Sequence record: MT446417.1
DNA length: 41,043 bases
Strand: one strand, 5' to 3'
Origin: Escherichia virus TH49
The notes under the pieces: generated by a model
Seen by the model: only the letters and a program-made list of their open reading frames with translations
Told to the model about the DNA's origin: nothing
The model's database searches: none
Made by a program: the position numbers and the translations under genes
Shown here: in pieces, positions 2,802 through 38,555 of the stretch
Position numbering within the stretch: the stretch's first letter is position 1
How the letters are laid out: each line of letters begins with the position of its first letter

Positions 2802-5522
2802 ATGAACGCATTAAACATTGCACGTAATGACTTCTCAGAGATTGAACTAGCCGCTATTCCGTACAACATCCTCAGCGAGCACTACGGGGACAAGCTGGCA
2901 CGCGAGCAGTTAGCACTGGAGCATGAAGCGTACGAGCTGGGCGAGCAGCGTTTCCTGAAGATGTTAGAACGTCAGGTGAAAGCTGGTGAGTTCGCTGACA
3001 ACGTGGCCGCTAAACCGCTGGTCTTGACGTTGCACCCACAGTTAACCAAGCGTATTGACGACTGGAAGGAGGAGCAATCAAACGCTCGCGGTAAGAAGCC
3101 TCGCGCATACTACCCGATTAAGCACGGCGTTCCCTCAGAGTTGGCCCTTAGTATGGGCGCTGAGGTGCTCAAGGAGAAGCGCGGAGTGTCCAGTGAGGCA
3201 ATCGCACTGCTCACCATTAAGGTAGTCTTAGGGACGCTCACAGACGCCTCAAAGGCCACCATCCAGCAGGTATCCTCTCAGTTAGGCAAGGCGCTTGAGG
3301 ATGAGGCCCGCTTCGGGCGTATCCGTGAGCAGGAGGCCACCTACTTCAAGAAGAATGTAGCGGACCAGCTGGACAAGCGCGTGGGGCACGTGTACAAGAA
3401 GGCTTTCATGCAGGTTGTTGAGGCCGATATGATAGCCAAAGGGATGCTGGGCGGAGACAACTGGGCGAGCTGGAAGACCGACGAGCAGATGCACGTAGGG
3501 ACAAAGCTGCTGGAGCTGCTCATTGAGGGCACCGGTCTGGTGGAAATGACCAAGAACAAGATGGCCGATGGCTCCGACGATGTGACCAGTATGCAGATGG
3601 TCCAGCTGGCTCCGGCCTTCGTGGAACTCCTGAGCAAACGAGCGGGCGCACTCGCGGGTATCAGCCCGATGCACCAGCCGTGCGTAGTCCCTCCGAAACC
3701 TTGGGTCGAAACCGTAGGTGGTGGCTACTGGTCAGTCGGTCGTCGACCGCTGGCACTGGTTCGTACCCACTCCAAGAAGGCGCTTCGCCGCTATACTGAC
3801 GTGCACATGCCTGAGGTATACAAGGCGGTAAACCTCGCGCAAAACACACCGTGGAAGGTGAACAAGAAGGTGCTGGCGGTAGTCAACGAGATTATCAACT
3901 GGAAGCACTGCCCGGTTGCTGACGTCCCAGCGATTGAACGCGAAGAGTTACCACCACGCCCGGACGATATCGACACCAACGAGGTGGCACGTAAGGCGTG
4001 GCGTAAGGAGGCCGCAGCGGTCTACCGTAAGGACAAGGCCCGCCAGTCCCGCCGATTGTCGATGGAGTTCATGGTCGCACAGGCCAACAAGTTCGCTAAC
4101 CACAAGGCCATCTGGTTCCCGTACAACATGGACTGGCGCGGGCGTGTGTACGCTGTGAGCATGTTCAACCCACAGGGTAACGACATGACCAAGGGTATGC
4201 TGACGCTGGCCAAAGGTAAGCCAATCGGTCTCGATGGGTTTTACTGGCTGAAGATTCACGGTGCAAACTGTGCAGGCGTCGACAAGGTTCCCTTCCCTGA
4301 GCGCATCAAGTTCATCGAAGAGAACGAGGGCAACATTCTGGCGAGCGCAGCGGACCCACTGAATAACACTTGGTGGACTCAGCAGGATTCGCCGTTCTGT
4401 TTCTTAGCGTTCTGCTTTGAGTATGCAGGCGTTAAGCACCACGGACTGAATTACAACTGCTCACTACCGCTGGCATTCGATGGGTCATGCTCTGGGATTC
4501 AGCACTTCAGCGCGATGCTCCGCGATTCCATCGGTGGTCGTGCGGTTAACCTGCTGCCTTCTGATACCGTGCAGGATATCTACAAGATTGTGGCCGACAA
4601 GGTTAACGAGGTACTCCACCAGCACGCTATCAACGGGTCTCAGACGGTGGTCGAGCAGATTGCTGACAAAGAGACTGGCGAGTTTCACGAGAAGGTAACT
4701 CTGGGTGAGTCCGTACTGGCTGCGCAGTGGTTGCAGTATGGAGTGACCCGCAAGGTCACTAAGCGTTCGGTAATGACGTTGGCGTACGGTTCCAAAGAGT
4801 TCGGCTTCCGCCAGCAAGTTCTGGAAGATACCATTCAGCCTGCTATTGACAACGGCGAGGGCCTGATGTTTACGCACCCTAACCAAGCGGCTGGCTACAT
4901 GGCTAAGCTGATTTGGGACGCTGTGACCGTGACCGTAGTGGCCGCTGTCGAGGCAATGAACTGGCTGAAGTCTGCCGCTAAGCTGCTGGCTGCTGAAGTC
5001 AAGGACAAGAAGACCAAAGAGGTGCTGCGTAAGCGCTGCGCAATCCACTGGGTAACACCAGACGGCTTCCCGGTGTGGCAAGAGTACCGCAAGCAGAACC
5101 AAGCCCGCCTGAAGCTGGTCTTCCTCGGTCAGGCCAACGTCAAGATGACGTACAACACCGGGAAGGACTCCGAGATTGACGCGCACAAGCAGGAATCTGG
5201 CATCGCTCCCAACTTTGTACACTCACAGGATGGCAGCCACCTGCGCATGACCGTAGTGCACGCCAACGAGGTCTACGGGATTGACTCCTTCGCACTCATT
5301 CACGACTCCTTCGGGACCATTCCGGCTGACGCTGGGAATCTCTTTAAGGCAGTCCGCGAGACGATGGTCAAGACCTATGAGGACAACGATGTAATCGCCG
5401 ACTTCTACGACCAGTTCGCTGACCAGCTGCACGAGTCTCAACTGGACAAGATGCCAGCGGTCCCGGCCAAAGGTGACCTGAATCTGCGCGATATCTTAGA
5501 GTCTGACTTCGCGTTCGCATAA
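2802..5522 (+). CDS. gp1: Single-subunit DNA-dependent RNA polymerase (T7/T3 gp1 family)
   Basis: 906 aa, near-collinear with the recalled T7/T3 RNAP (AGISPMHQPCVVPPKPW, RRPLALVRTHSKK, FPYNMDWRGRVYAV, FDGSCSGIQHFSAML, MTLAYGSKEFGFRQQ, IHDSFGT, C-terminal ESDFAFA). Confidence 0.98.
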   Translation: MNALNIARNDFSEIELAAIPYNILSEHYGDKLAREQLALEHEAYELGEQRFLKMLERQVKAGEFADNVAAKPLVLTLHPQLTKRIDDWKEEQSNARGKKPRAYYPIKHGVPSELALSMGAEVLKEKRGVSSEAIALLTIKVVLGTLTDASKATIQQVSSQLGKALEDEARFGRIREQEATYFKKNVADQLDKRVGHVYKKAFMQVVEADMIAKGMLGGDNWASWKTDEQMHVGTKLLELLIEGTGLVEMTKNKMADGSDDVTSMQMVQLAPAFVELLSKRAGALAGISPMHQPCVVPPKPWVETVGGGYWSVGRRPLALVRTHSKKALRRYTDVHMPEVYKAVNLAQNTPWKVNKKVLAVVNEIINWKHCPVADVPAIEREELPPRPDDIDTNEVARKAWRKEAAAVYRKDKARQSRRLSMEFMVAQANKFANHKAIWFPYNMDWRGRVYAVSMFNPQGNDMTKGMLTLAKGKPIGLDGFYWLKIHGANCAGVDKVPFPERIKFIEENEGNILASAADPLNNTWWTQQDSPFCFLAFCFEYAGVKHHGLNYNCSLPLAFDGSCSGIQHFSAMLRDSIGGRAVNLLPSDTVQDIYKIVADKVNEVLHQHAINGSQTVVEQIADKETGEFHEKVTLGESVLAAQWLQYGVTRKVTKRSVMTLAYGSKEFGFRQQVLEDTIQPAIDNGEGLMFTHPNQAAGYMAKLIWDAVTVTVVAAVEAMNWLKSAAKLLAAEVKDKKTKEVLRKRCAIHWVTPDGFPVWQEYRKQNQARLKLVFLGQANVKMTYNTGKDSEIDAHKQESGIAPNFVHSQDGSHLRMTVVHANEVYGIDSFALIHDSFGTIPADAGNLFKAVRETMVKTYEDNDVIADFYDQFADQLHESQLDKMPAVPAKGDLNLRDILESDFAFA

Positions 5523-6808: not shown

Positions 6809-7840
6809 ATGAAGAACATTAAGACTAATCCATTTAAGGCCGTATCGTTCGTTCGCTCTGCTATCGAGAAGGCGCTGGAGACTTCCGGTTACCTTATCGC
6901 AGACACTAAGCACGATGGTGTACGCGGGAACATTTGCGTAGACAACACGGCCAACGCAGCGTGGCTCAGCCGGGTCTCTAAGACCATTCCGGCCCTTGAG
7001 CATCTCAACGGTTTCGACCAGCGCTGGCAGAAATTACTGAAAGATGACCGATGGATTTTCCCTGATGGATTCATGCTTGATGGGGAACTCATGGTCAAAG
7101 GCGTGGACTTTAACACCGGGTCTGGCCTGCTGCGTACCAAGTGGCTCAAGGGTACAAACTTCCAATACAGCTACAAGTACCACCCGTGGGAGAAGGGCAT
7201 GAAGAATAAAGCGCCATTCCGTTTAGACCAAGCGAAACTGCAAGTTGTCCTCTACGATATCATTCCGCTCGACATTATCGAGTCCGGCGATGACTACAAC
7301 GTGATGACCCTCCTCCGCCTTGAGCACGTCAAGGTTGCCTTACCAGTCCTGCAAGACCACTTCCCTGAAGTCGAGTGGTGCCTCTCGGAGTCCCATGAAG
7401 TTTACGACATGGACGAACTCGATGCGCTGTACCGACAGAAACGAGAAGAAGGTCACGAAGGTCTGGTGGTTAAGGACCCTCGCGGTATCTACAAGCGCGG
7501 TAAGAAGTCCGGCTGGTGGAAACTGAAGCCAGAGAATGAGGCTGACGGTATCGTTGTGGGACTCAACTGGGGAACTCCGGGTCTTGCCAACGAGGGCAAG
7601 GTGATTGGCTTCGAGGTTCTCCTTGAGTCCGGTCGAGTGGTATCCGCAAACAACATCTCTCAGGCACTTATGGAGGAGTTCACAGCTGAGGTTAAGCGTC
7701 AGGAGGACGAAGAGGTTAATCCATACCACGGCTGGGCGTGCCAAATCAAGTACATGGAGGAAACTCCAGACGGCTCTCTGCGTCACCCGTCGTTCGACAA
7801 ATGGCGTGGCACTGAGGCTGACCCGACCATCAAGATGTAA
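6809..7840 (+). CDS. gp1.3: ATP-dependent DNA ligase (T7 gp1.3 homolog)
   Basis: 343 aa. N-terminal MKNIKTNPFKAVSFV and the adenylation motif K-x-DG (KHDGVRGN); long blocks match the recalled T7 ligase (MLDGELMVKGVDFNTGSGLLRTKW, KRGKKSGWWK.KPENEADGI, YMEETPDGSLRHPSF). Confidence 0.96.
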   Translation: MKNIKTNPFKAVSFVRSAIEKALETSGYLIADTKHDGVRGNICVDNTANAAWLSRVSKTIPALEHLNGFDQRWQKLLKDDRWIFPDGFMLDGELMVKGVDFNTGSGLLRTKWLKGTNFQYSYKYHPWEKGMKNKAPFRLDQAKLQVVLYDIIPLDIIESGDDYNVMTLLRLEHVKVALPVLQDHFPEVEWCLSESHEVYDMDELDALYRQKREEGHEGLVVKDPRGIYKRGKKSGWWKLKPENEADGIVVGLNWGTPGLANEGKVIGFEVLLESGRVVSANNISQALMEEFTAEVKRQEDEEVNPYHGWACQIKYMEETPDGSLRHPSFDKWRGTEADPTIKM

Positions 7841-7861
7841 TTAGGACCCACTATAGGAGAC
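7839..7861 (+). promoter_or_regulatory. Phage RNAP promoter (phi1.5/1.6-like), aattaggacccactataggagac
   Basis: Consensus-like with a GG instead of GGG at the start site; overlaps the ligase stop codon. Confidence 0.7.
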
Positions 7862-7866
7862 ACCAA

Positions 7867-7953
7867 ATGTCTATCAACCTGATTCTAATCATCGCGTTCA
7901 TTCTCGCGGCTATCGTGTGGTCGATGAACGACGAGCCACCAAAAGGAGCATAA
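7867..7953 (+). CDS. Putative small hydrophobic peptide (28 aa)
   Basis: ATG 5 nt after the AGGAGA of the promoter. The product MSINLILIIAFILAAIVWSM... is a single transmembrane helix. It is below the ORF-track cutoff and was found by reading. Confidence 0.3.
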   Translation: MSINLILIIAFILAAIVWSMNDEPPKGA

Positions 7954-7956
7954 ACC

Positions 7957-8229
7957 ATGCGCTTACACTTCAATAAATCCAACGGTATCTTCTCGGTTCG
8001 CCGGGAGGACCGCAGCACTGTAGCAGCCACTGAGCGCCACGGTAAGATTCCACGCATCGGCGACACCTTCGAGCTGGCACCTCGTGTGCACATCTTGGTT
8101 ACTCGCGGTCTCTACGAATTGGCTCAAAATAAGAGCCGTCCTTTCGTACCCGTAGTGGTAACCAAGTGGCCACGCCTTCGCCTGTTCTGGGAGCGCTTCA
8201 AGGAGGTGTTCGATGACGGCCAAGAGTAA
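7957..8229 (+). CDS. gp1.6: Gene 1.6 protein homolog (90 aa)
   Basis: Matches the recalled T7 gp1.6 along its length (RLH.NKS, VRR.DRS.V...ER..KIP.IG.T..LAP.VHI..TRG, KEVF). Confidence 0.75.
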   Translation: MRLHFNKSNGIFSVRREDRSTVAATERHGKIPRIGDTFELAPRVHILVTRGLYELAQNKSRPFVPVVVTKWPRLRLFWERFKEVFDDGQE

Positions 8230-10005: not shown

Positions 10006-10461
10006 ATGGCCAAAGTTCAATTCACTAAGCGCAAGGAGACCTCTCAGATTTTCGTTCACTGTTCCGCCACCAAGGCAACCATGGACGTAGGTGTCCGTGA
10101 GATTCGCCAGTGGCACAAAGAGCAGGGCTGGCTGGATGTAGGGTATCACTTCATCATCCGTCGTGATGGTACCGTAGAGGCGGGCCGCGACCAAGACGCT
10201 GTTGGTTCACACGTCAAAGGATACAACTCGACTTCTGTCGGCGTGTGTCTGGTGGGAGGTATCGACGCTAAGGGCAACCCTGAGGCAAACTTCACACCAG
10301 CCCAGATGCAGTCTCTGCGTTCGCTGCTGGTAGAACTGAAGGTGCAATACGCTGGGGCTGTGCTGATGGCACACCACGACGTAGCGCCTAAAGCCTGCCC
10401 GAGCTTCAACCTGAAGCGCTGGTGGGAGAAGAACGAACTGGTCACTTCTGACCATGGGTAA
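10006..10461 (+). CDS. gp3.5: Lysozyme / N-acetylmuramoyl-L-alanine amidase (T7 gp3.5 homolog)
   Basis: 151 aa, the same length as T7 lysozyme, with very high identity (IFVHCSATK, VGVREIRQWHKEQGWLDVGYHFII.RDGTVEAGRD, FTPAQMQSLRSLLV, HH.VAPKACPSF.LKRWWEKNELVTSD). Confidence 0.97.
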   Translation: MAKVQFTKRKETSQIFVHCSATKATMDVGVREIRQWHKEQGWLDVGYHFIIRRDGTVEAGRDQDAVGSHVKGYNSTSVGVCLVGGIDAKGNPEANFTPAQMQSLRSLLVELKVQYAGAVLMAHHDVAPKACPSFNLKRWWEKNELVTSDHG

Positions 10462-10462
10462 A

Positions 10463-10485
10463 CATTAGGGCACACTACAGGGAGA
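10463..10485 (+). promoter_or_regulatory. Phage RNAP promoter (phi3.8-like), cattagggcacactacagggaga
   Basis: Consensus with one substitution (CACTACAG); the transcript 5' end forms a GGGAGAC...GTTTCCC hairpin. Confidence 0.75.
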
Positions 10486-10524
10486 CAATCACGTTTCCCT
10501 GTTGTCGCTTGAGGAGATTACTTT

Positions 10525-10640
10525 ATGAACAACTTGAAAGACTTCGACATAATCCCGCTGCTGGCGTATGGCGTGCTCGGACTTTGGGGCGTGACATTCC
10601 TCATAGCGTTCTTCATGTCGTGTGTTGACGGGACGGCTTT

Positions 10641-10644
<4 letters not shown>
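10525..10644 (+). CDS. Putative small membrane peptide (39 aa)
   Basis: ATG with GAGGAGA 8 nt upstream. The product MNNLKDFDIIPLLAYGVLGLWGVTFLIAFFM... has one transmembrane helix. Its stop overlaps the HNH gene start (ATGA). Confidence 0.35.
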
Positions 10645-12699
<2,055 letters not shown>

Positions 12700-16806: not shown

Positions 16807-17704
16807 GCACACATTGTTATCCTTCAGCGACTACCGGGCAACCCAGAAGATTGCCAAGGGTGTCCTTGTAATGGATGGTGACTGGCTGGTGTTCCAAGCC
16901 ATGAGTGCCGCTGAGTTCGATGCCTCGTGGGAGGATGAGATTTGGCACCGTTGCTGTGACCACGCCAAGGCCCGTGAGATTCTGGAGAACTCCATCGAGT
17001 CCTACAAGGGCCGCAAGAAGGCATGGAAGAATGCAGACGTTATCCTAGCGTTCACCGACCGTGTCAACTGGCGCAAGCTGCTGGTTGACCCAACGTACAA
17101 AGAGAACCGCGCAGTCGTCAAGAAGCCTGTGGGATACTTCGAGTTCCTTGAGTACGTATTCGAAACCTACACGTGCGTCCTTGAGCCTCAGCTCGAAGGC
17201 GATGACGTGATGGGTATCATTGGGTCTAACCCTCTCGTGTACAACTACGAGAAGGCCGTACTGGTCTCCTGCGACAAGGACTTTAAGACCATCCCGTACT
17301 GCGACTTCCTGTGGTGTACGACTGGTAACATCCTCGTGCAGACTCAGGAGACAGCCGACTACTGGCACCTCTTCCAGACCATCAAAGGTGACATCACCGA
17401 CGGTTACGGTGGGATTCCCGGATGGGGAGATACCGCAGAGGACTTCCTCAAGGAGCCATTCATTGTGGAGCCTGTAACGTCCGTGCTGAAGTCCGGCAAG
17501 AACAAGGGCCAAGAGGTAACCAAGTGGGTGAAACGCGCTCCTGAGCCGGGAGAGACGCTCTGGGACTGCATCAAGTCCATTGGTGCCAAAGCAGGGATGA
17601 CCGAAGCGGAAGTAATCAAGCAGGGCCAGATGGCTCGCATCCTCCGTTCTGATGAGTACAACATCGAGACTGGGGAGATTACTCTATGGCAACCGGGCAG
17701 CTGA
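16799..17704 (+). CDS. gp6: 5'-3' exonuclease (T7 gp6 homolog)
   Basis: 301 aa from the ATG at 16799 (GGAGG 8 nt upstream). Near identity to the recalled T7 gp6 (VMDGDWLVFQAMSAAEFDASWE.EIWHRCCDHAKAR, KKPVGYFEFL, GDDVMG, CDKDFKTIP.CDFLWCTTGNIL, IKGDITDGY, GWGDTAEDFL, KSGKNKGQEVTKWVKR). The track ORF from 16541 is an upstream extension. Confidence 0.96.
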   Translation: MSKHTLLSFSDYRATQKIAKGVLVMDGDWLVFQAMSAAEFDASWEDEIWHRCCDHAKAREILENSIESYKGRKKAWKNADVILAFTDRVNWRKLLVDPTYKENRAVVKKPVGYFEFLEYVFETYTCVLEPQLEGDDVMGIIGSNPLVYNYEKAVLVSCDKDFKTIPYCDFLWCTTGNILVQTQETADYWHLFQTIKGDITDGYGGIPGWGDTAEDFLKEPFIVEPVTSVLKSGKNKGQEVTKWVKRAPEPGETLWDCIKSIGAKAGMTEAEVIKQGQMARILRSDEYNIETGEITLWQPGS

Positions 17705-17796
17705 TTCTCATCGTCCTGACCATGGGCTTAGTCGCTCGTGGTCTCTGGATGTTGGCCTTGATTATCAAGCAGATAGTCGAGCATAAAGCAGAGTGA
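17686..17796 (+). CDS. Putative small membrane peptide (36 aa), gene 6.3 position
   Basis: ATG overlapping the end of gene 6; the product MATGQLILIVLTMGLVARGLWMLALIIKQ... has one transmembrane helix. Found by reading; below the ORF-track cutoff. Confidence 0.3.
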   Translation: MATGQLILIVLTMGLVARGLWMLALIIKQIVEHKAE

Positions 17797-17811
17797 TAAA
17801 CTCATGGGCAC

Positions 17812-17834
17812 AATTAGGACCCACTATAGGGAAG
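17812..17834 (+). promoter_or_regulatory. Phage RNAP promoter (phi6.5-like), aattaggacccactatagggaag
   Basis: Consensus-like 23-mer followed by two TACTTAAAG repeats and the gene 6.5 RBS. Confidence 0.75.
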
Positions 17835-17881
17835 TGCCCATTATGATTATTACTTAAAGATTACTTAAAGAGGAGACTCAA

Positions 17882-18127
17882 ATGTTAAAACCTATAGAGC
17901 ACATCCTTAACAATCCTAATGACCTTCCTGACGTACCGCGAGCTGTCAAGGAATATCTACAGTCTCGCTTCAATGCTGACTTCCTGTATCAGTCAGAGGT
18001 CCGTAAGCTGCGTGAAGCTGGTCACAGTGAGGAGTTCATCTCCGGTGTACTGTACGGCCACTATATGGCTTCGCGTGTCCTTGATGAGATGGAGGGCCGT
18101 CAGCGTGCACTCAAAGAAGGAGATTGA
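17882..18127 (+). CDS. Gene 6.5-like protein (81 aa)
   Basis: ATG with AGGAG upstream; syntenic position after the phi6.5-like promoter. Confidence 0.6.
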   Translation: MLKPIEHILNNPNDLPDVPRAVKEYLQSRFNADFLYQSEVRKLREAGHSEEFISGVLYGHYMASRVLDEMEGRQRALKEGD

Positions 18128-33136: not shown

Positions 33137-35551
33137 ATGGACCAAGAAATTAAAACAGTCATCCAGTACCCCACAGGGTCCACTGAGTTCGACATCCCGT
33201 TCGACTACCTGTCCCGTAAGTTTGTCCGTGTGTCGCTGGTGTCAGACGACAACCGCAGACTGCTGAGCAACATCACTGAGTACCGCTACGTGTCTAAGAC
33301 CAGAGTGAAGCTCCTTGTGGACACGACCGGGTTCGACCGTGTGGAAATCCGACGGTTAACCTCAGCGTCTGAGCGTATCGTTGACTTCAGCGATGGCTCG
33401 GTTCTCCGCGCTGCTGACCTTAACGTATCTCAAATACAGTCGGCGCATATCGCAGAGGAAGCACGTGACGCGGCACTCATGGCCATGCCACAGGATGACG
33501 CTGGGAACCTTGATGCACGAAATCGGCGCATCGTTCGACTGGCTACGGGTATCGATGGCACTGATGCTGTCAACAAGGACCAGCTGGATAAGACCTTAGG
33601 TGACGCTGGTGGTATCTTGAGCGACATGAAGCAGACAGAGAAGGACGTCATGGACTACATCCAGAACTTCGCTGATGACTCCACTATGGTCAAGGGCGTT
33701 AGCTGGGTGTACAACAACGGGGCAGCGAACGGTGGTGAAACATCCTTCATAATCACTAAGACTGGTCCCGTATTCGCGGTACCTTTCATTGAGATTAACG
33801 GGAGCCGACAGCTTCGGAACTACCACTTCGAGTATGACCCTAAGACTAAGGTCGTCACTCTCGCTAAGCCGCTCCGCAAGGGAGACTTCGTTGTCTGCCA
33901 GACTGCTGAAGGCACGTTGCCAATCATTGAGCTTCTGTCCGGGGCTAATGGTGCCTCTGAGATTGGCGTTAAGGGTGGTGGTACCATTCAGGATGTTATA
34001 GATGCGCCAGCTGTAATCACGGGGCGTGTCAACATTCGAAACCCATACTGGAACGCTCCTCAGGATAATGCAGGAGACCCTGATGCGTCTATCGCCAACT
34101 CCCGAGCAATCAACAAGATGTTCAACTCTGGGGCACTCCATGTGGAGCTTGACGATAAAGCGCGTCACGTTAGCGAGCCTCTACTGTACACTTCCAGCCT
34201 TTCGATTCACGGGGCAGGGAGAAGCGCTCTGAGTCTTATCTGGAATGGCGGTGACCTTCCGATGATTGCTCGTAGCACCTACAGCGATAAGGACACCAGA
34301 GGGGCCAGTAACGTCCGACTAAAGGACCTTCGTGTATCCGACTTAGCACCTACTCGGGTGAAGTATTACACCATCGACCTATTCAACGGTAACAGTAATG
34401 GCCTCACCGATTGCTGGCTGGACTGTCCCGGTAGGTTCAACGCGGATGGTAGCAGGCAGATTACCTCTGACCGGTATGGGGTCGCTATTGGTGTGGCTCG
34501 AAACAGTACCCTTCCTGGTGACGCTGGGTTCGTATCCCACATGCGCTCATCAAGAATCACCAACGGTACACTCATGATTAACGGTACGGATTGGTACGTA
34601 AGCGGCTGTGAGCTTTGGGGGAGCTTCCGAAACAGGGCCGTTGAGATTAGCGGCGGTGGTACAATGGATGGTGGTACCCAGCTGGTTCCGGGCGCTGAGG
34701 CTGGAATCTTCCTGTTTAGCGATGTCGGCTTTAACATTGACACCCTCAAGGTGATTGGTGTGTATTTCGACGGTAGCACCGATAAGACGCTCAAGACTGG
34801 ATGGGGCATTAAGTCAGCTGCTGGAATCGGCCTACAGGGTGCACAGATTCTGGGGTGCAACTTCTGGCACATCAATGAGGGCGGTATCTTCGTTTCCAAG
34901 ATGTATTCCTCAACGGTCAGCTCTAACTTCCGTGATTGCGATAGTGACGATACAGGAGAGGATGACATCGTGTGTGACGATATGTATGGCTCTCGACTCC
35001 TCAGTAACCATCACCGAGGCCCAGCACCAAAGGCCTCCGACAGGGTTAACCTTGGGCGGCCCTTTAAGGTGACTGGACGTGCTGGGTTCCCACTATCAAC
35101 AGTAGGTGGTGAGATAGGTTTCGGTTCGGCATACATTCCGTGTTCCGTATCTGGAAGAGACACTGTGCGAAGCGTTGGGGGTTCCTCCCTTACTTCCTTC
35201 CAGTACTCCTCTCTGCCACCAGCAACCAACAGGGTGGGAGAAGTAATCGTAATGGCTGGTAGAACGTACATCTCAAATGGTACAGGGTGGGTTGATGCAA
35301 CAGGGGCTACCGCAGCGCTAGAGTCACCAACGGATTTAGACACTGCGACAGTCCTTCGGTCATACTACACGTCAGACCTGACCAAGCACACAAACATCCC
35401 TCCGGGAGTGACAGGAGGTGGTGTCCTCGACAACAAGATGGTGACGTCTCAGTACATCACTCAGATTCTAACCGTACTCAAAGCCTCTGGCGGAGTATAC
35501 TCAAGGTCTCTGACACCTTCTGGGTGGGGACAGTGGAGTAAGATAGCATAA
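33137..35551 (+). CDS. gp17: Tail fiber/tailspike protein with T7 gp17-like N-terminal adaptor domain and probable C-terminal capsule depolymerase domain
   Basis: 804 aa. The first 120 aa or so match the recalled T7 gp17 N-terminus (IKTV, FDIPF.YL.RKFV, RRLTS...[26 protein letters not shown]). The remainder is unrelated to the T7 fiber and rich in Gly/Asn/Thr, as in beta-helix tailspikes. Confidence 0.85.
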
Positions 35552-35561
35552 GGAGAACCAC

Positions 35562-37538
35562 ATGTTAGACAATCTTAATCAACCGCGCGGAAGTACCGCA
35601 GGTATACTGGAACCTAACCGCGCTCCAGCGGTAATCACTAGGTCTGTGGCCGACCTCCTCTTAGATGGGGAGGCAGGTCTCCGTAAGAACTTTGGGGCCA
35701 AGGGAGACGGGGTGTCTGACGATACTGCCGCATTCAACGACTGGTGGGCGTGCCTCATGGATGTTAACTACAAGCGAAGACCAGCCGAGGAAGATGAGTC
35801 AACGGTTCGATTCATGCTTCAGAAGGGTCCTCTACTTAAGTTGGAGCACGGTACCTTTGTATATAGCGGTAAGGGGTTAGATATCGCCACTTCGAATGCC
35901 TTCGTGTTCAACGTTGTTGGGGAGAGTGCCTTGTCCACAAAGGTTCTAATCACGGGCGGGTACTACCTATTCGACTTCGCTAATAACCCGGTCCATTCCC
36001 TCCTCGGGGACATGACAATACACGGTGGGCTAGGTGCGGTTCGGTACCGCTCTAAGTCCCGTAACGCCAGTGGGATGCACATATTCAAGGACCTAAGGGT
36101 CTCTCGGTATTCTGAATGTGCTATCAGCCACAACTCTGTGGACATGCCGTACTTCCGTGTGGAGCGTGGGATGTTCTATGGTCGAACCGATATGCAGACC
36201 ATTGGTGTGTGCGTGTCTGGTCTCGCCGCTGGTGGCTACATTAAGGACTGTGTGTTCAGTGATAACCGTTACGGGATTAAACTGGCGGTAGGTGACAATG
36301 GTATCGAGCGCACTGGGCCAGCCACTCCGTTCCTCATTGAGGGTAATGACTTCTACCGAACAGGTAACAGGGCACCTAAGGCATCCTATGACGTATGGGT
36401 AGAGCCGGGTTCAACTGCCCAGAACTCAGGAAGAAGCATTAAGTTCAGCCGCAATAAGTTTGGACAAGAGTTCCTAGTGTACCCGGATTGTCACATTCTG
36501 GTTGCTGACGCCTACCCTACAGGGAGTGGCGCGGGACTGAATGGTGACAGGCACCACACCGAGGAGCAGTCGTCTGGATTCTTCTCTGGCGCACGGTTCG
36601 ATGACAACGACGTTAACTCCGTCAACTCTGGGTATAGCGCTCCGTACATCAAGTCGTTCACCCCAAACATCGGCAACTTACGTATAGCTGACTCATATGA
36701 TAACGGGATGCCCTCGCGGTTCATTGAGTTCTCCGGTGGAATCCTTCAGTCGCAGGTTAATAACCTCACTCGTACAAACGTCCTTGACATTAGTCACTGC
36801 GTGTCCCTACAGAAAGGGGTTGAGCCATCACTACTGTCTAACCTTAACGATGTCATCAAGGTTGTAGACCCGCTACAGTTACTTGCAGGTCATCCACAAT
36901 CTACGGCAATCCCTACAGGTAACCAGCACGTTGACTTCACGAGTGTGTATGCTGGGCCTACTAGCTCCATAGCTGTGACAGGTGCATCCCGTACTGCGAT
37001 AAACAACTCCTACGGTGGTATTACGGAGGCCGCAGAGATTACCCTGAGTTCTCCAGACGGTCGGGCTGTTATTACCGCACCCGGTGGGGTTGCTGGGCGT
37101 CAGCACTGGATTGACTTCGAAGTTAGACGCGGGTCGACGAACCCTGTGAGGTCTGTAATCGTGGAGATACTTGACCAGTCAGGGGTATCCTTACAATTGC
37201 GTAGGGTTATCCTTATGGACTCGGCCCTTCGGTGGCAGAAGGTGGTACTGCCGTATGTACCAAACGAGTCAGGTAATATCGTGATTAGGTTTAGGTCTGG
37301 CACCTTCGTTGAGGGGACTGCGACAACATTTGCGGTAGGTAACGCAAACATCTACCAGAACCCTACTCCGATAAACACGGGCCACAACAGCGGACTGTCC
37401 ATGCGCTGGAGTACACAACATGAGGTGCGTGGGTCTCGGCACGTTTGGGTGGACTCCTTAGGGAACTTCCGCTCGAAGAACGGCCAGCCTACGTCAGAGT
37501 CTGACGGTGTAATCATTAGTGCCAACCCATCACCATAA
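35562..37538 (+). CDS. Second receptor-binding protein: putative tailspike/capsule depolymerase without a gp17-type anchor domain
   Basis: 658 aa; ATG with AAGGAGA upstream. The motif FGAKGDGVSDDTAAF is typical of pectate-lyase-like right-handed beta-helix tailspikes. The position directly after gp17 matches the two-depolymerase layout of KP32-like Klebsiella phages. Confidence 0.72.
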   Translation: MLDNLNQPRGSTAGILEPNRAPAVITRSVADLLLDGEAGLRKNFGAKGDGVSDDTAAFNDWWACLMDVNYKRRPAEEDESTVRFMLQKGPLLKLEHGTFVYSGKGLDIATSNAFVFNVVGESALSTKVLITGGYYLFDFANNPVHSLLGDMTIHGGLGAVRYRSKSRNASGMHIFKDLRVSRYSECAISHNSVDMPYFRVERGMFYGRTDMQTIGVCVSGLAAGGYIKDCVFSDNRYGIKLAVGDNGIERTGPATPFLIEGNDFYRTGNRAPKASYDVWVEPGSTAQNSGRSIKFSRNKFGQEFLVYPDCHILVADAYPTGSGAGLNGDRHHTEEQSSGFFSGARFDDNDVNSVNSGYSAPYIKSFTPNIGNLRIADSYDNGMPSRFIEFSGGILQSQVNNLTRTNVLDISHCVSLQKGVEPSLLSNLNDVIKVVDPLQLLAGHPQSTAIPTGNQHVDFTSVYAGPTSSIAVTGASRTAINNSYGGITEAAEITLSSPDGRAVITAPGGVAGRQHWIDFEVRRGSTNPVRSVIVEILDQSGVSLQLRRVILMDSALRWQKVVLPYVPNESGNIVIRFRSGTFVEGTATTFAVGNANIYQNPTPINTGHNSGLSMRWSTQHEVRGSRHVWVDSLGNFRSKNGQPTSESDGVIISANPSP

Positions 37539-37547
37539 GGAGGTAAC

Positions 37548-37751
37548 ATGTTGTCCCTAGACTTCAACAATGAAGTTATCAAGGCGGCTCCCATTGCGGG
37601 GGTCGCTGGGGCTGATGGCGTAGCGAGGCTCTTTTGGGGCCTCTCACTCAACGAGTGGTTCTACGTCGCGGCAATCGCCTACACAGTGGTTCAAATTGGT
37701 GCCAAGGTAGTCGACAAAATCATTGACTGGAAGAAAGCTAATAAGGAGTAA
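37548..37751 (+). CDS. gp17.5: Class II holin (T7 gp17.5 homolog)
   Basis: 67 aa, near identity to the recalled T7 gp17.5 (MLSLDFNNE.IKAAPI, LNEWFYVAAIAYTVVQIGAKVVDK.IDWKKANKE). Confidence 0.94.
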   Translation: MLSLDFNNEVIKAAPIAGVAGADGVARLFWGLSLNEWFYVAAIAYTVVQIGAKVVDKIIDWKKANKE

Positions 37752-38108: not shown

Positions 38109-38555
38109 ATGCTTGAGTTCACAAAGAGAATCGTCCCGTACCTTGTGGCCATCATGGTGTTTGCCTTCGGGTGGCACTTGGGTTCGCAATCTACGGACGC
38201 TAAATGGAAGGAGGTAGTACAGAATGAGTACGTTAAGAAGCAAACGGCTAGAGCTGAAACTCAGAAAGCGATTGACGCAGTATCGGCTAAGTACCAAGCA
38301 GACCTTGAGGGGCTGGAGGGCAGCACTGATAGGATTATTGCTGATTTGCGTAGCGACAATAAGCGGCTGCGCGTCAGAGTCAAACCTACCAGTGTCGCCG
38401 CAGGACCAGACGGTAGATGCCTCGTTGATGGTTCCGTCGAACTACACGAAGCAACTTCTCGAAGTCTTATCGCAATAACCCAGAAGGCCGACCTCAAGGA
38501 GAAGGCCCTACAGGACACTATTCGTAAGCTGCAAGGGAAAGGAGGTGAACATTGA
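38109..38555 (+). CDS. gp18.5: Rz-like i-spanin (T7 gp18.5 homolog)
   Basis: 148 aa. N-terminal transmembrane segment and high identity to the recalled T7 gp18.5 ([60 protein letters not shown]). Confidence 0.9.
38224..38478 (+). CDS. gp18.7: Rz1-like o-spanin lipoprotein embedded in the +1 frame of Rz (T7 gp18.7 homolog)
   Basis: 84 aa. Lipobox and signal ([15 protein letters not shown]) identical to the recalled T7 gp18.7; the gene lies entirely inside the Rz gene. Confidence 0.88.
   Translation: MSTLRSKRLELKLRKRLTQYRLSTKQTLRGWRAALIGLLLICVATISGCASESNLPVSPQDQTVDASLMVPSNYTKQLLEVLSQ

What the first reader, a model, noticed from the sequence alone, without database searches (positions are those of the whole stretch)
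7867..7953. Three unannotated micro-ORFs encoding single transmembrane helices
Peptides of 28 aa (7867..7953), 39 aa (10525..10644) and 36 aa (17686..17796) each have a plausible RBS, each encode one hydrophobic helix, and each is translationally coupled to a neighbouring gene. They sit at positions where T7 has small genes (1.4/1.5, upstream of 3.8, and 6.3). Small membrane peptides in phages can modulate host membrane proteins or lysis timing and are usually missed by annotation.
Basis: inference. Interest (0 to 1): 0.35.

Follow-up and report, generated by a model that had tools for sequence, protein, structure and literature searches.

The report
Three tiny membrane-peptide genes, one unannotated
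All three tiny open reading frames in this T7-like Klebsiella phage are real, conserved genes for single-helix membrane peptides; two are already catalogued (one is T7 gene 6.3), and the third is the overlooked counterpart of T7/T3 gene 1.5, probably missed because it is 3 bases under the usual gene-caller size limit.

Summary
The window is a Przondovirus (K11/KP32-like relative of T7). The three ORFs exist exactly as described. Each has a Shine-Dalgarno site, one hydrophobic helix and tight junctions with its neighbours.

**Coding evidence.** All three are under protein-level purifying selection in relatives. pN/pS is 0.12-0.14, against 0.05-0.16 for flanking genes, and variable sites are concentrated at third codon positions.

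**Identity.**
- **orfC (17686-17796)** is T7 gene 6.3 (Pfam DUF5516) and is annotated in most relatives.
- **orfB (10525-10644)** belongs to PHROG 13077 and is usually annotated as "hypothetical protein". It is one allele of a variable chain of membrane micro-genes upstream of the primase-helicase gene.
- **orfA (7867-7953)** is the positional counterpart of T7/T3 gene 1.5, sharing its length and its helix-plus-acidic-tail-plus-proline layout. It occurs in about 380 phage genomes, is almost never annotated, and is absent from a 15-billion-protein collection. At 87 bp it falls below Prodigal's 90-bp floor.

**Function.** Function is unknown. T7 literature links 6.3 to lysis timing and 1.5 to ligase-deletion compensation and to conditional toxicity.

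**Verdict.** Modest interest: this is an annotation correction, not a new kind of system.

The parts
7841..7860 (+). Phage-RNA-polymerase promoter directly upstream of orfA, equivalent to T7/T3/BA14 phi1.5. K11 RefSeq labels it 'phi1.6'.
   Evidence: One of 12 matches to the K11-type promoter consensus, with 0 expected by chance. Promoter, GGAG and ATG are conserved in all related loci. T7, T3 and BA14 annotations show phi1.5 directly before gene 1.5.
7867..7953 (+). orfA: 28-aa single-helix peptide, the unannotated counterpart of T7/T3 gene 1.5
   Evidence: Translation. Found in 382 phage records and 50 fetched loci, 47 of them with the standard 87-nt ORF. pN/pS is 0.117, and 16 of 26 variable sites are third positions (P=3.6e-4). 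It has the same position, length and helix-plus-[DN]D[DEN]..P layout as T7, T3 and BA14 gp1.5. There is no PHROG or Pfam hit, and the exact sequence is absent from the protein collection.
7957..8229 (+). Gene 1.6 homologue (BC10 family), downstream neighbour; its RBS (AAAGGAG, 7942-7948) lies inside orfA
   Evidence: Pfam BC10, E=8.9e-15. Sequence. The stop-to-ATG spacer is 2 nt in about half of the relatives and 3 nt in the other half, so the two ORFs are not consistently in frame.
10465..10484 (+). Phage promoter upstream of orfB
   Evidence: Exact match to the promoter consensus. K11 annotates the homologous site as a promoter.
10525..10644 (+). orfB: 39-aa single-helix peptide, member of phrog_13077
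   Evidence: Translation. phrog_13077, E=1.4e-25. pN/pS is 0.121, and 27 of 47 variable sites are third positions (P=7e-6); 39- and 40-aa alleles differ by an in-frame codon. Found in 185 phage records, mostly annotated as a hypothetical protein. The exact sequence is in the protein collection. The family is narrow in a search of 1.84 billion representatives.
10641..11006 (+). HNH endonuclease (gene 3.8-like) lying between orfB and gene 4; its start overlaps the orfB stop (ATGA)
   Evidence: Pfam HNH_3, E=1.9e-15. In relatives without this gene, orfB overlaps the gene 4 start by the same ATGA.
17686..17796 (+). orfC: 36-aa single-helix peptide, gene 6.3 (DUF5516); its start lies 19 nt inside the end of gene 6 (exonuclease, stop at 17704)
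   Evidence: Translation. Pfam PF17637, 68.5 bits against a cutoff of 25, and phrog_5008, E=3e-22. K11 annotates the homologous ORF as gp6.3. It aligns with T7 and T3 gp6.3, sharing a GLW..A.I(I/V)(K/R) stretch. pN/pS is 0.139, and 18 of 29 variable sites are third positions (P=2e-4).
17814..17833 (+). phi6.5-type promoter marking the end of the middle-gene block just after orfC
   Evidence: Promoter match. K11, T7 and T3 annotate phi6.5 at the same place.

Best explanation
These are three genuine middle-period (class II) phage genes. Each encodes a 28-39 residue peptide that consists of little more than one membrane-spanning helix.

**Identity.**
- orfA is the Przondovirus counterpart of T7/T3 gene 1.5.
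- orfB is a member of PHROG 13077, a micro-gene normally joined to the start of the primase-helicase gene.
- orfC is gene 6.3 (DUF5516).

**Shown here.**
- The ORFs, their ribosome-binding sites and their junctions.
- Phage promoters directly upstream of orfA and orfB.
- Strong hydrophobicity.
- Protein-level purifying selection.
- Syntenic counterparts in other genera.
- The annotation status of each.

**Inferred.**
- The phage RNA polymerase transcribes them with the DNA-metabolism genes.
- They are translated from their own Shine-Dalgarno sites.
- They insert into the host inner membrane.
- They act as small modulators of host envelope or membrane physiology, not as enzymes.

For gene 6.3 the most likely role is tuning lysis timing, based on T7 genetics. 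For gene 1.5 it is a dispensable host-directed function that is costly when DNA ligase is missing and toxic under nutrient limitation. For orfB it is a host-specific accessory function, because the locus is a variable cassette site.

orfA is probably missing from annotations because its 87 bp fall under the 90-bp minimum of Prodigal. I infer that this limit is the cause; I did not check which caller each genome used.

The confidence value applies to the gene identity and membrane-peptide part. I would put the specific functional roles at about 0.3.
For: **Existence and signals.**

**Selection.**
- pN/pS is 0.117, 0.121 and 0.139 in the claimed frames and 1.2-4.1 in four of the five other frames. 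The antisense wobble-sharing frame scores 0.25-0.35.
- Flanking accepted genes score 0.05-0.16.
- Third-position excess gives P=3.6e-4, 7e-6 and 2e-4, and most replacements are conservative, mainly I/V/L swaps.
- orfB has in-frame 39- and 40-aa alleles.

**Hydrophobicity.** The three are the top three of 92 same-size plus-strand ORFs.

**Family assignment.**
- phrog_13077, phrog_5008 and PF17637.
- K11 gp6.3.
- T7/T3 gp6.3 alignment.

**Gene 1.5 equivalence.**
- Small hydrophobic ORFs with a DD(N/D)..P tail sit between ligase and 1.6 in T7, T3, BA14-like, AP10-like and other loci.
- A promoter lies immediately upstream of them, as in T7, T3 and BA14.

**Annotation gap.**
- Among the annotated records in a 60-record sample, only 4 have a feature over orfA. 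The three I opened were an exact 90-nt variant, an N-terminally extended ORF and a 492-nt feature flagged as a pseudogene.
- The exact peptide is absent from 15 billion proteins, while orfB, orfC and T7/T3 gp1.5 are present.
- Prodigal scores only start-stop pairs above 90 bp (PMC2848648).
- The one exact annotation inspected is a 90-nt variant.

**Function leads from T7 and T3.**
- Gene 1.5 was knocked out in parallel in ligase-deleted T3 and T7 lines (PMC2696425).
- Gp1.5 toxicity in minimal medium was suppressed by stringent-like RNA polymerase alleles (bioRxiv 10.64898/2026.01.27.700999).

**Not explained by RNA.** There is no Rfam family. Fold z-scores are -0.66, +0.96 and -1.77.
Against: - There is no direct evidence of translation, membrane insertion or function for this phage or any Przondovirus. 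My literature searches found no ribosome-profiling or proteomic evidence for these peptides.
- Sequence-level homology of orfA to gp1.5 is weak. It has no hit to the T7 or BA14 gp1.5 PHROGs. hhalign gives P=6.6e-4 and probability 27%. The link therefore rests on synteny, size and layout.
- The last codons of orfA overlap the gene 1.6 RBS, the first six codons of orfC overlap gene 6, and the last codon and stop of orfB overlap the HNH gene start. Part of the conservation is therefore confounded.
- Sequences used for pN/pS are related, so site counts are not fully independent.
- orfB is present in only about half of the genus: 185 records against about 383 for the other two.
No dedicated predictor was used, and orfC carries an arginine inside its helix.
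Confidence: 0.8

Rival explanations
1. The micro-ORFs are only translational leader or coupling devices. Their translation delivers ribosomes to the downstream gene (1.6, HNH/gene 4) or terminates the gene 6 reading, and the peptides themselves have no function.
For: - The junctions are tight: ATGA overlaps, and the downstream RBS lies inside orfA.
- At the gene 4 site, unrelated micro-ORF alleles replace one another. The identity of the peptide is therefore not required for gene 4 expression.
Against: - A pure coupling ORF needs only an open frame. Here amino-acid sequence is conserved, with pN/pS of 0.12-0.14 and mostly conservative hydrophobic replacements.
- Every allele at the gene 4 site, and every gene 1.5 and gene 6.3 counterpart in other genera, keeps a hydrophobic helix despite sequence turnover.
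- orfC has no gene directly downstream to couple to.
- T7 gp1.5 alone is toxic when expressed, and a missense change in T7 gene 6.3 has a phenotype.
Confidence: 0.08
2. They are lysis-cassette components (holin, antiholin or single-gene-lysis-like peptides) that directly permeabilise the membrane or block cell-wall synthesis.
For: - They are single hydrophobic helices in the size range of the smallest known lysis peptides (own knowledge: phage M Lys is 37 aa).
- A T7 gene 6.3 missense change accelerated lysis (PMC2680503).
- T7 gp1.5 is growth-inhibitory in minimal medium.
Against: - The window has a complete canonical lysis set elsewhere: a T7-family holin at 37548-37751, spanins at 38109-38555 and 38224-38478, and the 3.5-type amidase at 10006-10461, whose T7, K11 and T3 homologues are annotated as amidase.
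- None of the three peptides hits a holin family.
- They lie in the middle-gene block, which is expressed long before lysis.
- Genes 1.5 and 6.3 are listed as non-essential in T7.
Confidence: 0.1
3. They are chance or recently born hydrophobic ORFs in promoter-containing spacers, conserved only because the DNA or RNA there has another role (promoter, RNase III site, RBS).
For: - They lie in spacers that carry promoters and RBSs.
- The orfC region folds slightly better than shuffles (z=-1.77, 3 of 200 shuffles). An inverted repeat flanks the phi6.5 promoter just downstream.
- Very short hydrophobic ORFs are prone to arise de novo.
Against: - Substitutions concentrate at third codon positions and are mostly synonymous or conservative.
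- Constraint equals that of neighbouring accepted genes.
- There is no Rfam hit and no significant fold for the orfA or orfB regions.
- Counterparts persist across genera with little sequence identity but the same layout.
Confidence: 0.03

Closest known systems
T7 gene 6.3 / T3 gene 6.3 / K11 gp6.3 (Pfam DUF5516, PF17637)
   Same: orfC matches the Pfam model well above its cutoff. It has the same length (36 vs 37 aa), and its start overlaps the end of the exonuclease gene in the same way. It is the last ORF before the phi6.5 promoter, and it shares the GLW..A.I(I/V)(K/R) stretch.
   Different: Nothing material; it is an ordinary member. Function is unknown in every member.
T7 gene 1.5 (29 aa), T3 gene 1.5 (25 aa), BA14/Kvp1 gp1.5 (26 aa)
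   Same: orfA occupies the same slot between the ligase gene and gene 1.6, directly behind a phage promoter. It has the same size and the same layout: an N-terminal helix followed by an acidic [DN]D[DEN] cluster and a proline.
   Different: - Sequence similarity is too low for PHROG models and is only weak by hhalign.
- The tail reads NDEPPKGA instead of DDNxWPDC or DDDMPDGHA.
- There is a single promoter, whereas T7 and BA14 have a phi1.5/phi1.6 pair.
- It is not annotated in the genus reference genome K11.
PHROG 13077 and the other micro-ORFs upstream of gene 4 (K11 'unknown product' ASC_0017; Berlinvirus-type phrog_25193)
   Same: orfB is a full-length member of phrog_13077. Like the K11 and Berlinvirus-type ORFs, it is a short hydrophobic ORF whose stop overlaps the next gene's start.
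   Different: - In this window an HNH endonuclease gene sits between orfB and gene 4.
- The K11 allele shares only the N-terminal MNKFKEHF with the 40-aa orfB alleles.
- T7 has nothing at this site, and T3 gene 3.7 is a non-hydrophobic, cysteine-rich peptide.
Small bacterial inner-membrane regulators (e.g. AcrZ, MgrB, MgtS, PmrR) and small single-helix phage lysis proteins (e.g. phage M Lys, 37 aa). This comparison is from my own knowledge, not tested here.
   Same: Size (about 30-50 aa) and a single hydrophobic helix with short tails. These act by binding larger membrane proteins, which is the working model proposed here.
   Different: There is no sequence relationship and no known partner. 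The three ORFs are expressed from phage middle transcripts. The comparison concerns how they may work, not family membership.

Membership tests
T7 gp6.3 family (Pfam DUF5516 / phrog_5008): orfC | Match to the family profile above the curated threshold | tested here: met
   PF17637: 68.5 bits against a cutoff of 25, E=3.6e-19, full length. phrog_5008: E=3.1e-22.
T7 gp6.3 family (Pfam DUF5516 / phrog_5008): orfC | Synteny: the start overlaps the 3' end of exonuclease gene 6, and it is the last ORF before the phi6.5 promoter and gene 6.5 | tested here: met
   Window 17686 lies inside gene 6 (stop at 17704). The promoter is at 17814-17833 and gene 6.5 at 17882. T7, T3 and K11 have the same layout.
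Gene 1.5 of T7/T3/BA14: orfA | Synteny: a small ORF between ligase (1.3) and gene 1.6, directly downstream of a phage promoter | tested here: met
   Ligase stop at 7840, promoter at 7841-7860, orfA at 7867-7953, gene 1.6 at 7957. Compare.
Gene 1.5 of T7/T3/BA14: orfA | 25-31 aa peptide with an N-terminal hydrophobic helix followed by an acidic cluster and a proline | tested here: met
   orfA is 28 aa, with its helix in residues 1-20, followed by NDEPP. T7 has DDDMP, T3 DDNIWP and BA14 DDNCWP. In the alignment of 12 counterparts, M1, one D and the P are invariant.
Gene 1.5 of T7/T3/BA14: orfA | Statistically supported sequence or profile similarity | tested here: inconclusive
   No hit to phrog_12128 (T7 1.5) or phrog_10145 (BA14 1.5). 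hhalign gives P=6.6e-4 and probability 27% over 19 columns. T3 and T7 gp1.5 are themselves reported as only 33% similar (PMC2696425).
PHROG 13077: orfB | Full-length match to the family profile | tested here: met
   E=1.4e-25, residues 1-39 on profile positions 2-40 of 40.
Holins / canonical lysis cassette | Match to a holin family and location in the late lysis cluster | tested here: not met
   None of the three hits a holin family. The T7-family holin is at 37548-37751 and the spanins at 38109-38555 and 38224-38478. The three ORFs lie in the middle-gene block.
Integral membrane peptide (general class) | Experimentally or predictor-supported membrane insertion and topology | not testable with these tools
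   Only hydrophobicity sums were computed: KD 17-residue maxima of 2.85, 2.10 and 2.06, and approximate Hessa-scale sums of -2.8, -1.0 and about -0.3 to +0.2 kcal/mol. No TMHMM/DeepTMHMM-type tool was available, and there is no fractionation data.

The most novel reading that the evidence does not exclude
T7-like phages may carry a conserved set of single-helix membrane micro-proteins. Each is physically joined to a DNA-metabolism gene: 1.5 next to ligase, the variable cassette chain at the start of primase-helicase, and 6.3 at the end of the exonuclease gene. These peptides could link the replication/recombination phase to the cell envelope, for example by tethering or timing, including the lysis clock. 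The site upstream of gene 4 would then be a fast-turnover hotspot for host-specific membrane-targeted modules, such as counter-defence or superinfection exclusion. In that case orfA would be a genus-wide, never-annotated component of this set.
Probability: 0.1. Interest if true: 0.6.

Novelty: new member of a known kind. Interest (0 to 1): 0.3.

Why it matters
**Practical value.**
- A 28-codon gene present in about 380 sequenced Klebsiella therapeutic-candidate phages is missing from essentially all annotations and from a 15-billion-protein collection. The likely cause is that it is 3 bases shorter than a gene-caller limit.
- Naming it as the gene 1.5 counterpart lets T7/T3 genetics be transferred to this genus. 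Those data are loss under ligase deletion and conditional toxicity tied to stringent-response physiology.
- The same applies to the T7 lysis-timing result for gene 6.3.

**Biological value.**
- Membrane micro-proteins appear to be a stable feature of the middle-gene block across several T7-like genera.
- The site upstream of the primase-helicase gene shows rapid turnover of such genes.

None of this changes how these phages are understood; it adds targets for small-protein functional work.

Tried and rejected
- **Word-index homology search.** That scan found a narrow family plus spurious hits in long proteins.
- **Sequence link from orfA to gp1.5.** PHROG and Pfam gave nothing for orfA. The profile-profile comparison with gp1.5 was weak, so the link cannot rest on sequence alone.
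- **Readthrough extension of gene 1.6.** I considered that orfA might be an in-frame N-terminal extension of gene 1.6, because in this window the two ORFs share a frame. I rejected this because half of the relatives have a 2-nt spacer instead of a 3-nt spacer.
- **RNA explanations.** There is no Rfam family in the window and no significant fold for the orfA or orfB regions.
- **Antisense genes.** The antisense ORFs at 7851-8093 and 10518-10742 share the wobble position with the sense genes, which explains the low antisense-frame ratio. The relatives I inspected annotate genes on one strand only. I did not pursue these further.
- **T3 gene 3.7 as the orfB counterpart.** Rejected because it is not hydrophobic.
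- **tRNA-like stretch in relatives.** ARAGORN found no tRNA in it, and the stretch is absent from the window.
- **Literature.** Searches for ribosome profiling or proteomics of these peptides found nothing usable.

Full report
**What the window is.** The window is a T7-like phage of the genus Przondovirus (K11/KP32 group). A 1-kb stretch is 100% identical to the unannotated record 'Escherichia virus TH50' and 85-95% identical to hundreds of Klebsiella phages. It carries 12 K11-type phage promoters, with 0 expected by chance, and the usual T7 gene order.

- The three ORFs translate as stated into 28, 39 and 36 residues.
- Each has a Shine-Dalgarno sequence 7-8 nt upstream of an ATG.
- orfA (7867-7953) starts 11 nt after the predicted transcription start of the promoter at 7841-7860. 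It ends 3 nt before gene 1.6, and the RBS of 1.6 lies inside orfA.
- orfB (10525-10644) lies about 40 nt behind the promoter at 10465-10484. It ends in an ATGA overlap with an HNH endonuclease gene.
- orfC (17686-17796) starts 19 nt inside the end of exonuclease gene 6 and ends just before the phi6.5-type promoter (17814-17833).
- They are the three most hydrophobic of the 92 plus-strand ORFs of 25-45 aa.
- They are the only ATG-started, SD-preceded ORFs of at least 25 aa in the intergenic gaps of my greedy ORF map.

**They are real genes.** I fetched 80 related loci that cover all three sites.

| ORF | Loci with ORF | pN/pS, claimed frame | Variable sites at 3rd position | P (3rd-position excess) |
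|---|---|---|---|---|
| orfA | 50 (47 with the standard 87-nt ORF; 3 differ only at the C-terminus) | 0.117 | 16 of 26 | 3.6e-4 |
| orfB | 38 (39- and 40-residue alleles, one in-frame codon apart, down to 50% identity) | 0.121 | 27 of 47 | 7e-6 |
| orfC | 44 | 0.139 | 18 of 29 | 2e-4 |

- The ORF counts come, the ratios, and the P values.
- Four of the five other frames give pN/pS of 1.2-4.1. The antisense frame that shares the wobble position gives 0.25-0.35, as expected for such a frame.
- Accepted neighbouring genes in the same loci give 0.05-0.16.
- Most replacements are conservative, mainly I/V/L swaps.
- RNA-level explanations are not supported. There is no Rfam family, and fold z-scores are -0.66, +0.96 and -1.77.
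- Caveats: the sequences are related, and a few codons overlap neighbouring genes or RBSs.

**What orfC is.** orfC is gene 6.3.
- It matches Pfam DUF5516 at 68.5 bits (cutoff 25) and phrog_5008.
- K11 RefSeq annotates the homologous ORF as gp6.3.
- It aligns with T7 and T3 gp6.3.
- Its exact sequence occurs on 350 contigs of the protein collection.

**What orfB is.** orfB is a full-length member of phrog_13077.
- It is annotated as a hypothetical protein in most sampled relatives and is present in the protein collection.
- It occurs in about half of the genus: 185 records against about 383 for the other two ORFs.
- A full HMMER scan of 1.84 billion representatives shows a narrow family.
- In relatives without the HNH gene, it overlaps the start of primase-helicase gene 4 by the same ATGA. 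Its natural partner is therefore gene 4, not gene 3.8.

**What orfA is.** orfA has no PHROG or Pfam match, but it occupies the gene 1.5 slot of T7, T3 and BA14.
- That slot lies directly behind a phage promoter, between the ligase gene and gene 1.6.
- The peptides share size and layout:
  - T7: MMYLMPLLIVIVGCLALHCSDDDMPDGHA
  - T3: MWLILFAIVATLGLMVADDNIWPDC
  - BA14-type: MLFLIAAAIFATFAFVIIDDNCWPDC
  - AP10-type: MDNIMFLYLFLILLMLITYPDDNWPEI
  - here: MSINLILIIAFILAAIVWSMNDEPPKGA
- Profile-profile similarity is only weak, with P=6.6e-4 and probability 27%. I therefore call orfA the positional and architectural counterpart of gene 1.5; homology is not proven.

**Annotation status.** This is where the finding is partly right.
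- orfA is present in 382 phage records. Among the annotated records in a 60-record sample, only 4 have a feature over it.
- The three I opened were an exact 90-nt variant, an N-terminally extended ORF and a 492-nt feature flagged as a pseudogene.
- The genus reference K11 leaves a 95-nt gap there, although the ORF is intact.
- Neither the window's peptide nor the genus consensus is in a 15-billion-protein collection. orfB, orfC and T7/T3 gp1.5 are all present.
- The likely reason is length. Prodigal scores only start-stop pairs above 90 bp (PMC2848648), and orfA is 87 bp. orfB (120 bp) and orfC (111 bp) clear the limit. That this limit is the cause is my inference.

**How they probably work.** This part is inferred and was not tested here.
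- The peptides are little more than one hydrophobic helix with short polar tails.
- They lie in the middle (DNA-metabolism) transcription block, and they keep the helix across genera while the sequence drifts.
- The most economical model is insertion into the host inner membrane and modulation of membrane or envelope proteins.

T7 and T3 genetics give leads:
[quoted passage not shown] The same change occurs in a lysozyme mutant (PMC2680503).
- Gene 6.3 was not recovered as removable in a genome-reduction screen, despite being listed as non-essential (PMC9825161).
- Gene 1.5 was destroyed in parallel in ligase-deleted T3 and T7 lines (PMC2696425).
- T7 Gp1.5 is toxic in minimal medium, and stringent-like RNA polymerase alleles suppress that toxicity. 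No consistent two-hybrid interaction with RelA, SpoT or RpoZ was seen (bioRxiv 10.64898/2026.01.27.700999).

The three ORFs are not the canonical lysis genes, which are present elsewhere in the window.

**Rivals.**
- A pure translational-coupling role is unlikely, given peptide-level constraint and the phenotypes seen in T7.
- A direct lysis-protein role is possible only as a minor variant for gene 6.3.
- Chance ORFs or DNA/RNA-only conservation are disfavoured by the codon-position data.

**Verdict.**
- Two of the three ORFs are already-known families. The third is a new, systematically missed member of the long-known gene 1.5 slot.
- Interest is modest at 0.3. The more interesting by-product is the variable chain of membrane micro-genes upstream of gene 4 in relatives.

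Noticed in passing
Related loci L004-L050, between the lysozyme gene and gene 4 (e.g. L010:9186-9664, L032:9490-9971); homologous to window 10462-10640: In relatives this gap holds a variable chain of 1-4 different single-helix micro-ORFs of 31-40 aa. Examples are MITQALIIFGLPILIVGTLYCINKEWFNDGQE, MNKVFDVFFMFVLTVAVITIAVLVGTIAIGVLHEVGLI, MSKEHIIDITVVIVTILSAMVLGATLMYSYLN and K11-type MNKFKEHFADSWPLYVYASAFIIGALRVLLP. They are often joined by overlapping stop/start codons. None of the five types tested matches a PHROG. The window has only orfB. It looks like a turnover hotspot for membrane micro-genes.
   Followed up: partly
L089 (K11) 4470-4545 and many relatives; absent from the window: There is a roughly 90-nt insert between the promoter and the micro-ORF upstream of gene 4. 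It ends in GGTTCGATTCCCGGACTGACCACACCA, which resembles a tRNA T-arm plus acceptor end. ARAGORN calls no tRNA there, and the motif is not in the window.
   Followed up: partly
window 10641-11006: An HNH endonuclease gene (Pfam HNH_3) sits between orfB and gene 4. Genomes that carry it have a different gene 4 N-terminus (MDNSLDS... instead of MSYGDS...). This is consistent with a mobile insertion that brought flanking sequence with it.
   Followed up: partly
window 17804-17841: A perfect 8-bp inverted repeat (ATGGGCAC / GTGCCCAT) brackets the phi6.5-type promoter core just after orfC. T3 annotates an RNase III site R6.5 overlapping its phi6.5 promoter at the same place. This may explain the slightly stable fold of the region (z=-1.77).
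   Followed up: partly
L087 (T7) 1209-1364: T7 gene 1.4 (51 aa, MFKKVGKFLAALAAILTLAYILAVYPQVALVVVGACYLAAVCACVWSIVNW) is also strongly hydrophobic and lies just upstream of gene 1.5. The window has no counterpart, because the ligase stop abuts the promoter.
   Followed up: no
window 7957-8229: The gene 1.6 homologue matches Pfam BC10 ('bladder cancer-related protein', E=8.9e-15), which is why RefSeq relatives are labelled 'BC10 family protein'. In T7, gene 1.6 substitutions contributed to faster lysis in evolved lines (PMC2680503).
   Followed up: no
window 7851-8093 and 10518-10742, minus strand: Antisense ORFs of 80 and 74 aa overlap orfA plus gene 1.6 and orfB plus the HNH gene. For the first I checked that it is in the frame sharing the wobble position with the sense genes. 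That frame gives the lowest of the alternative-frame ratios for both orfA and orfB. I take both to be by-products of the sense coding frames.
   Followed up: partly
window 33137-35551 and 35562-37538: Two consecutive large ORFs of 804 and 658 aa lie where T7 has a single tail-fibre gene. From my own knowledge, KP32-like phages carry two receptor-binding/depolymerase proteins here. I did not examine them.
   Followed up: no
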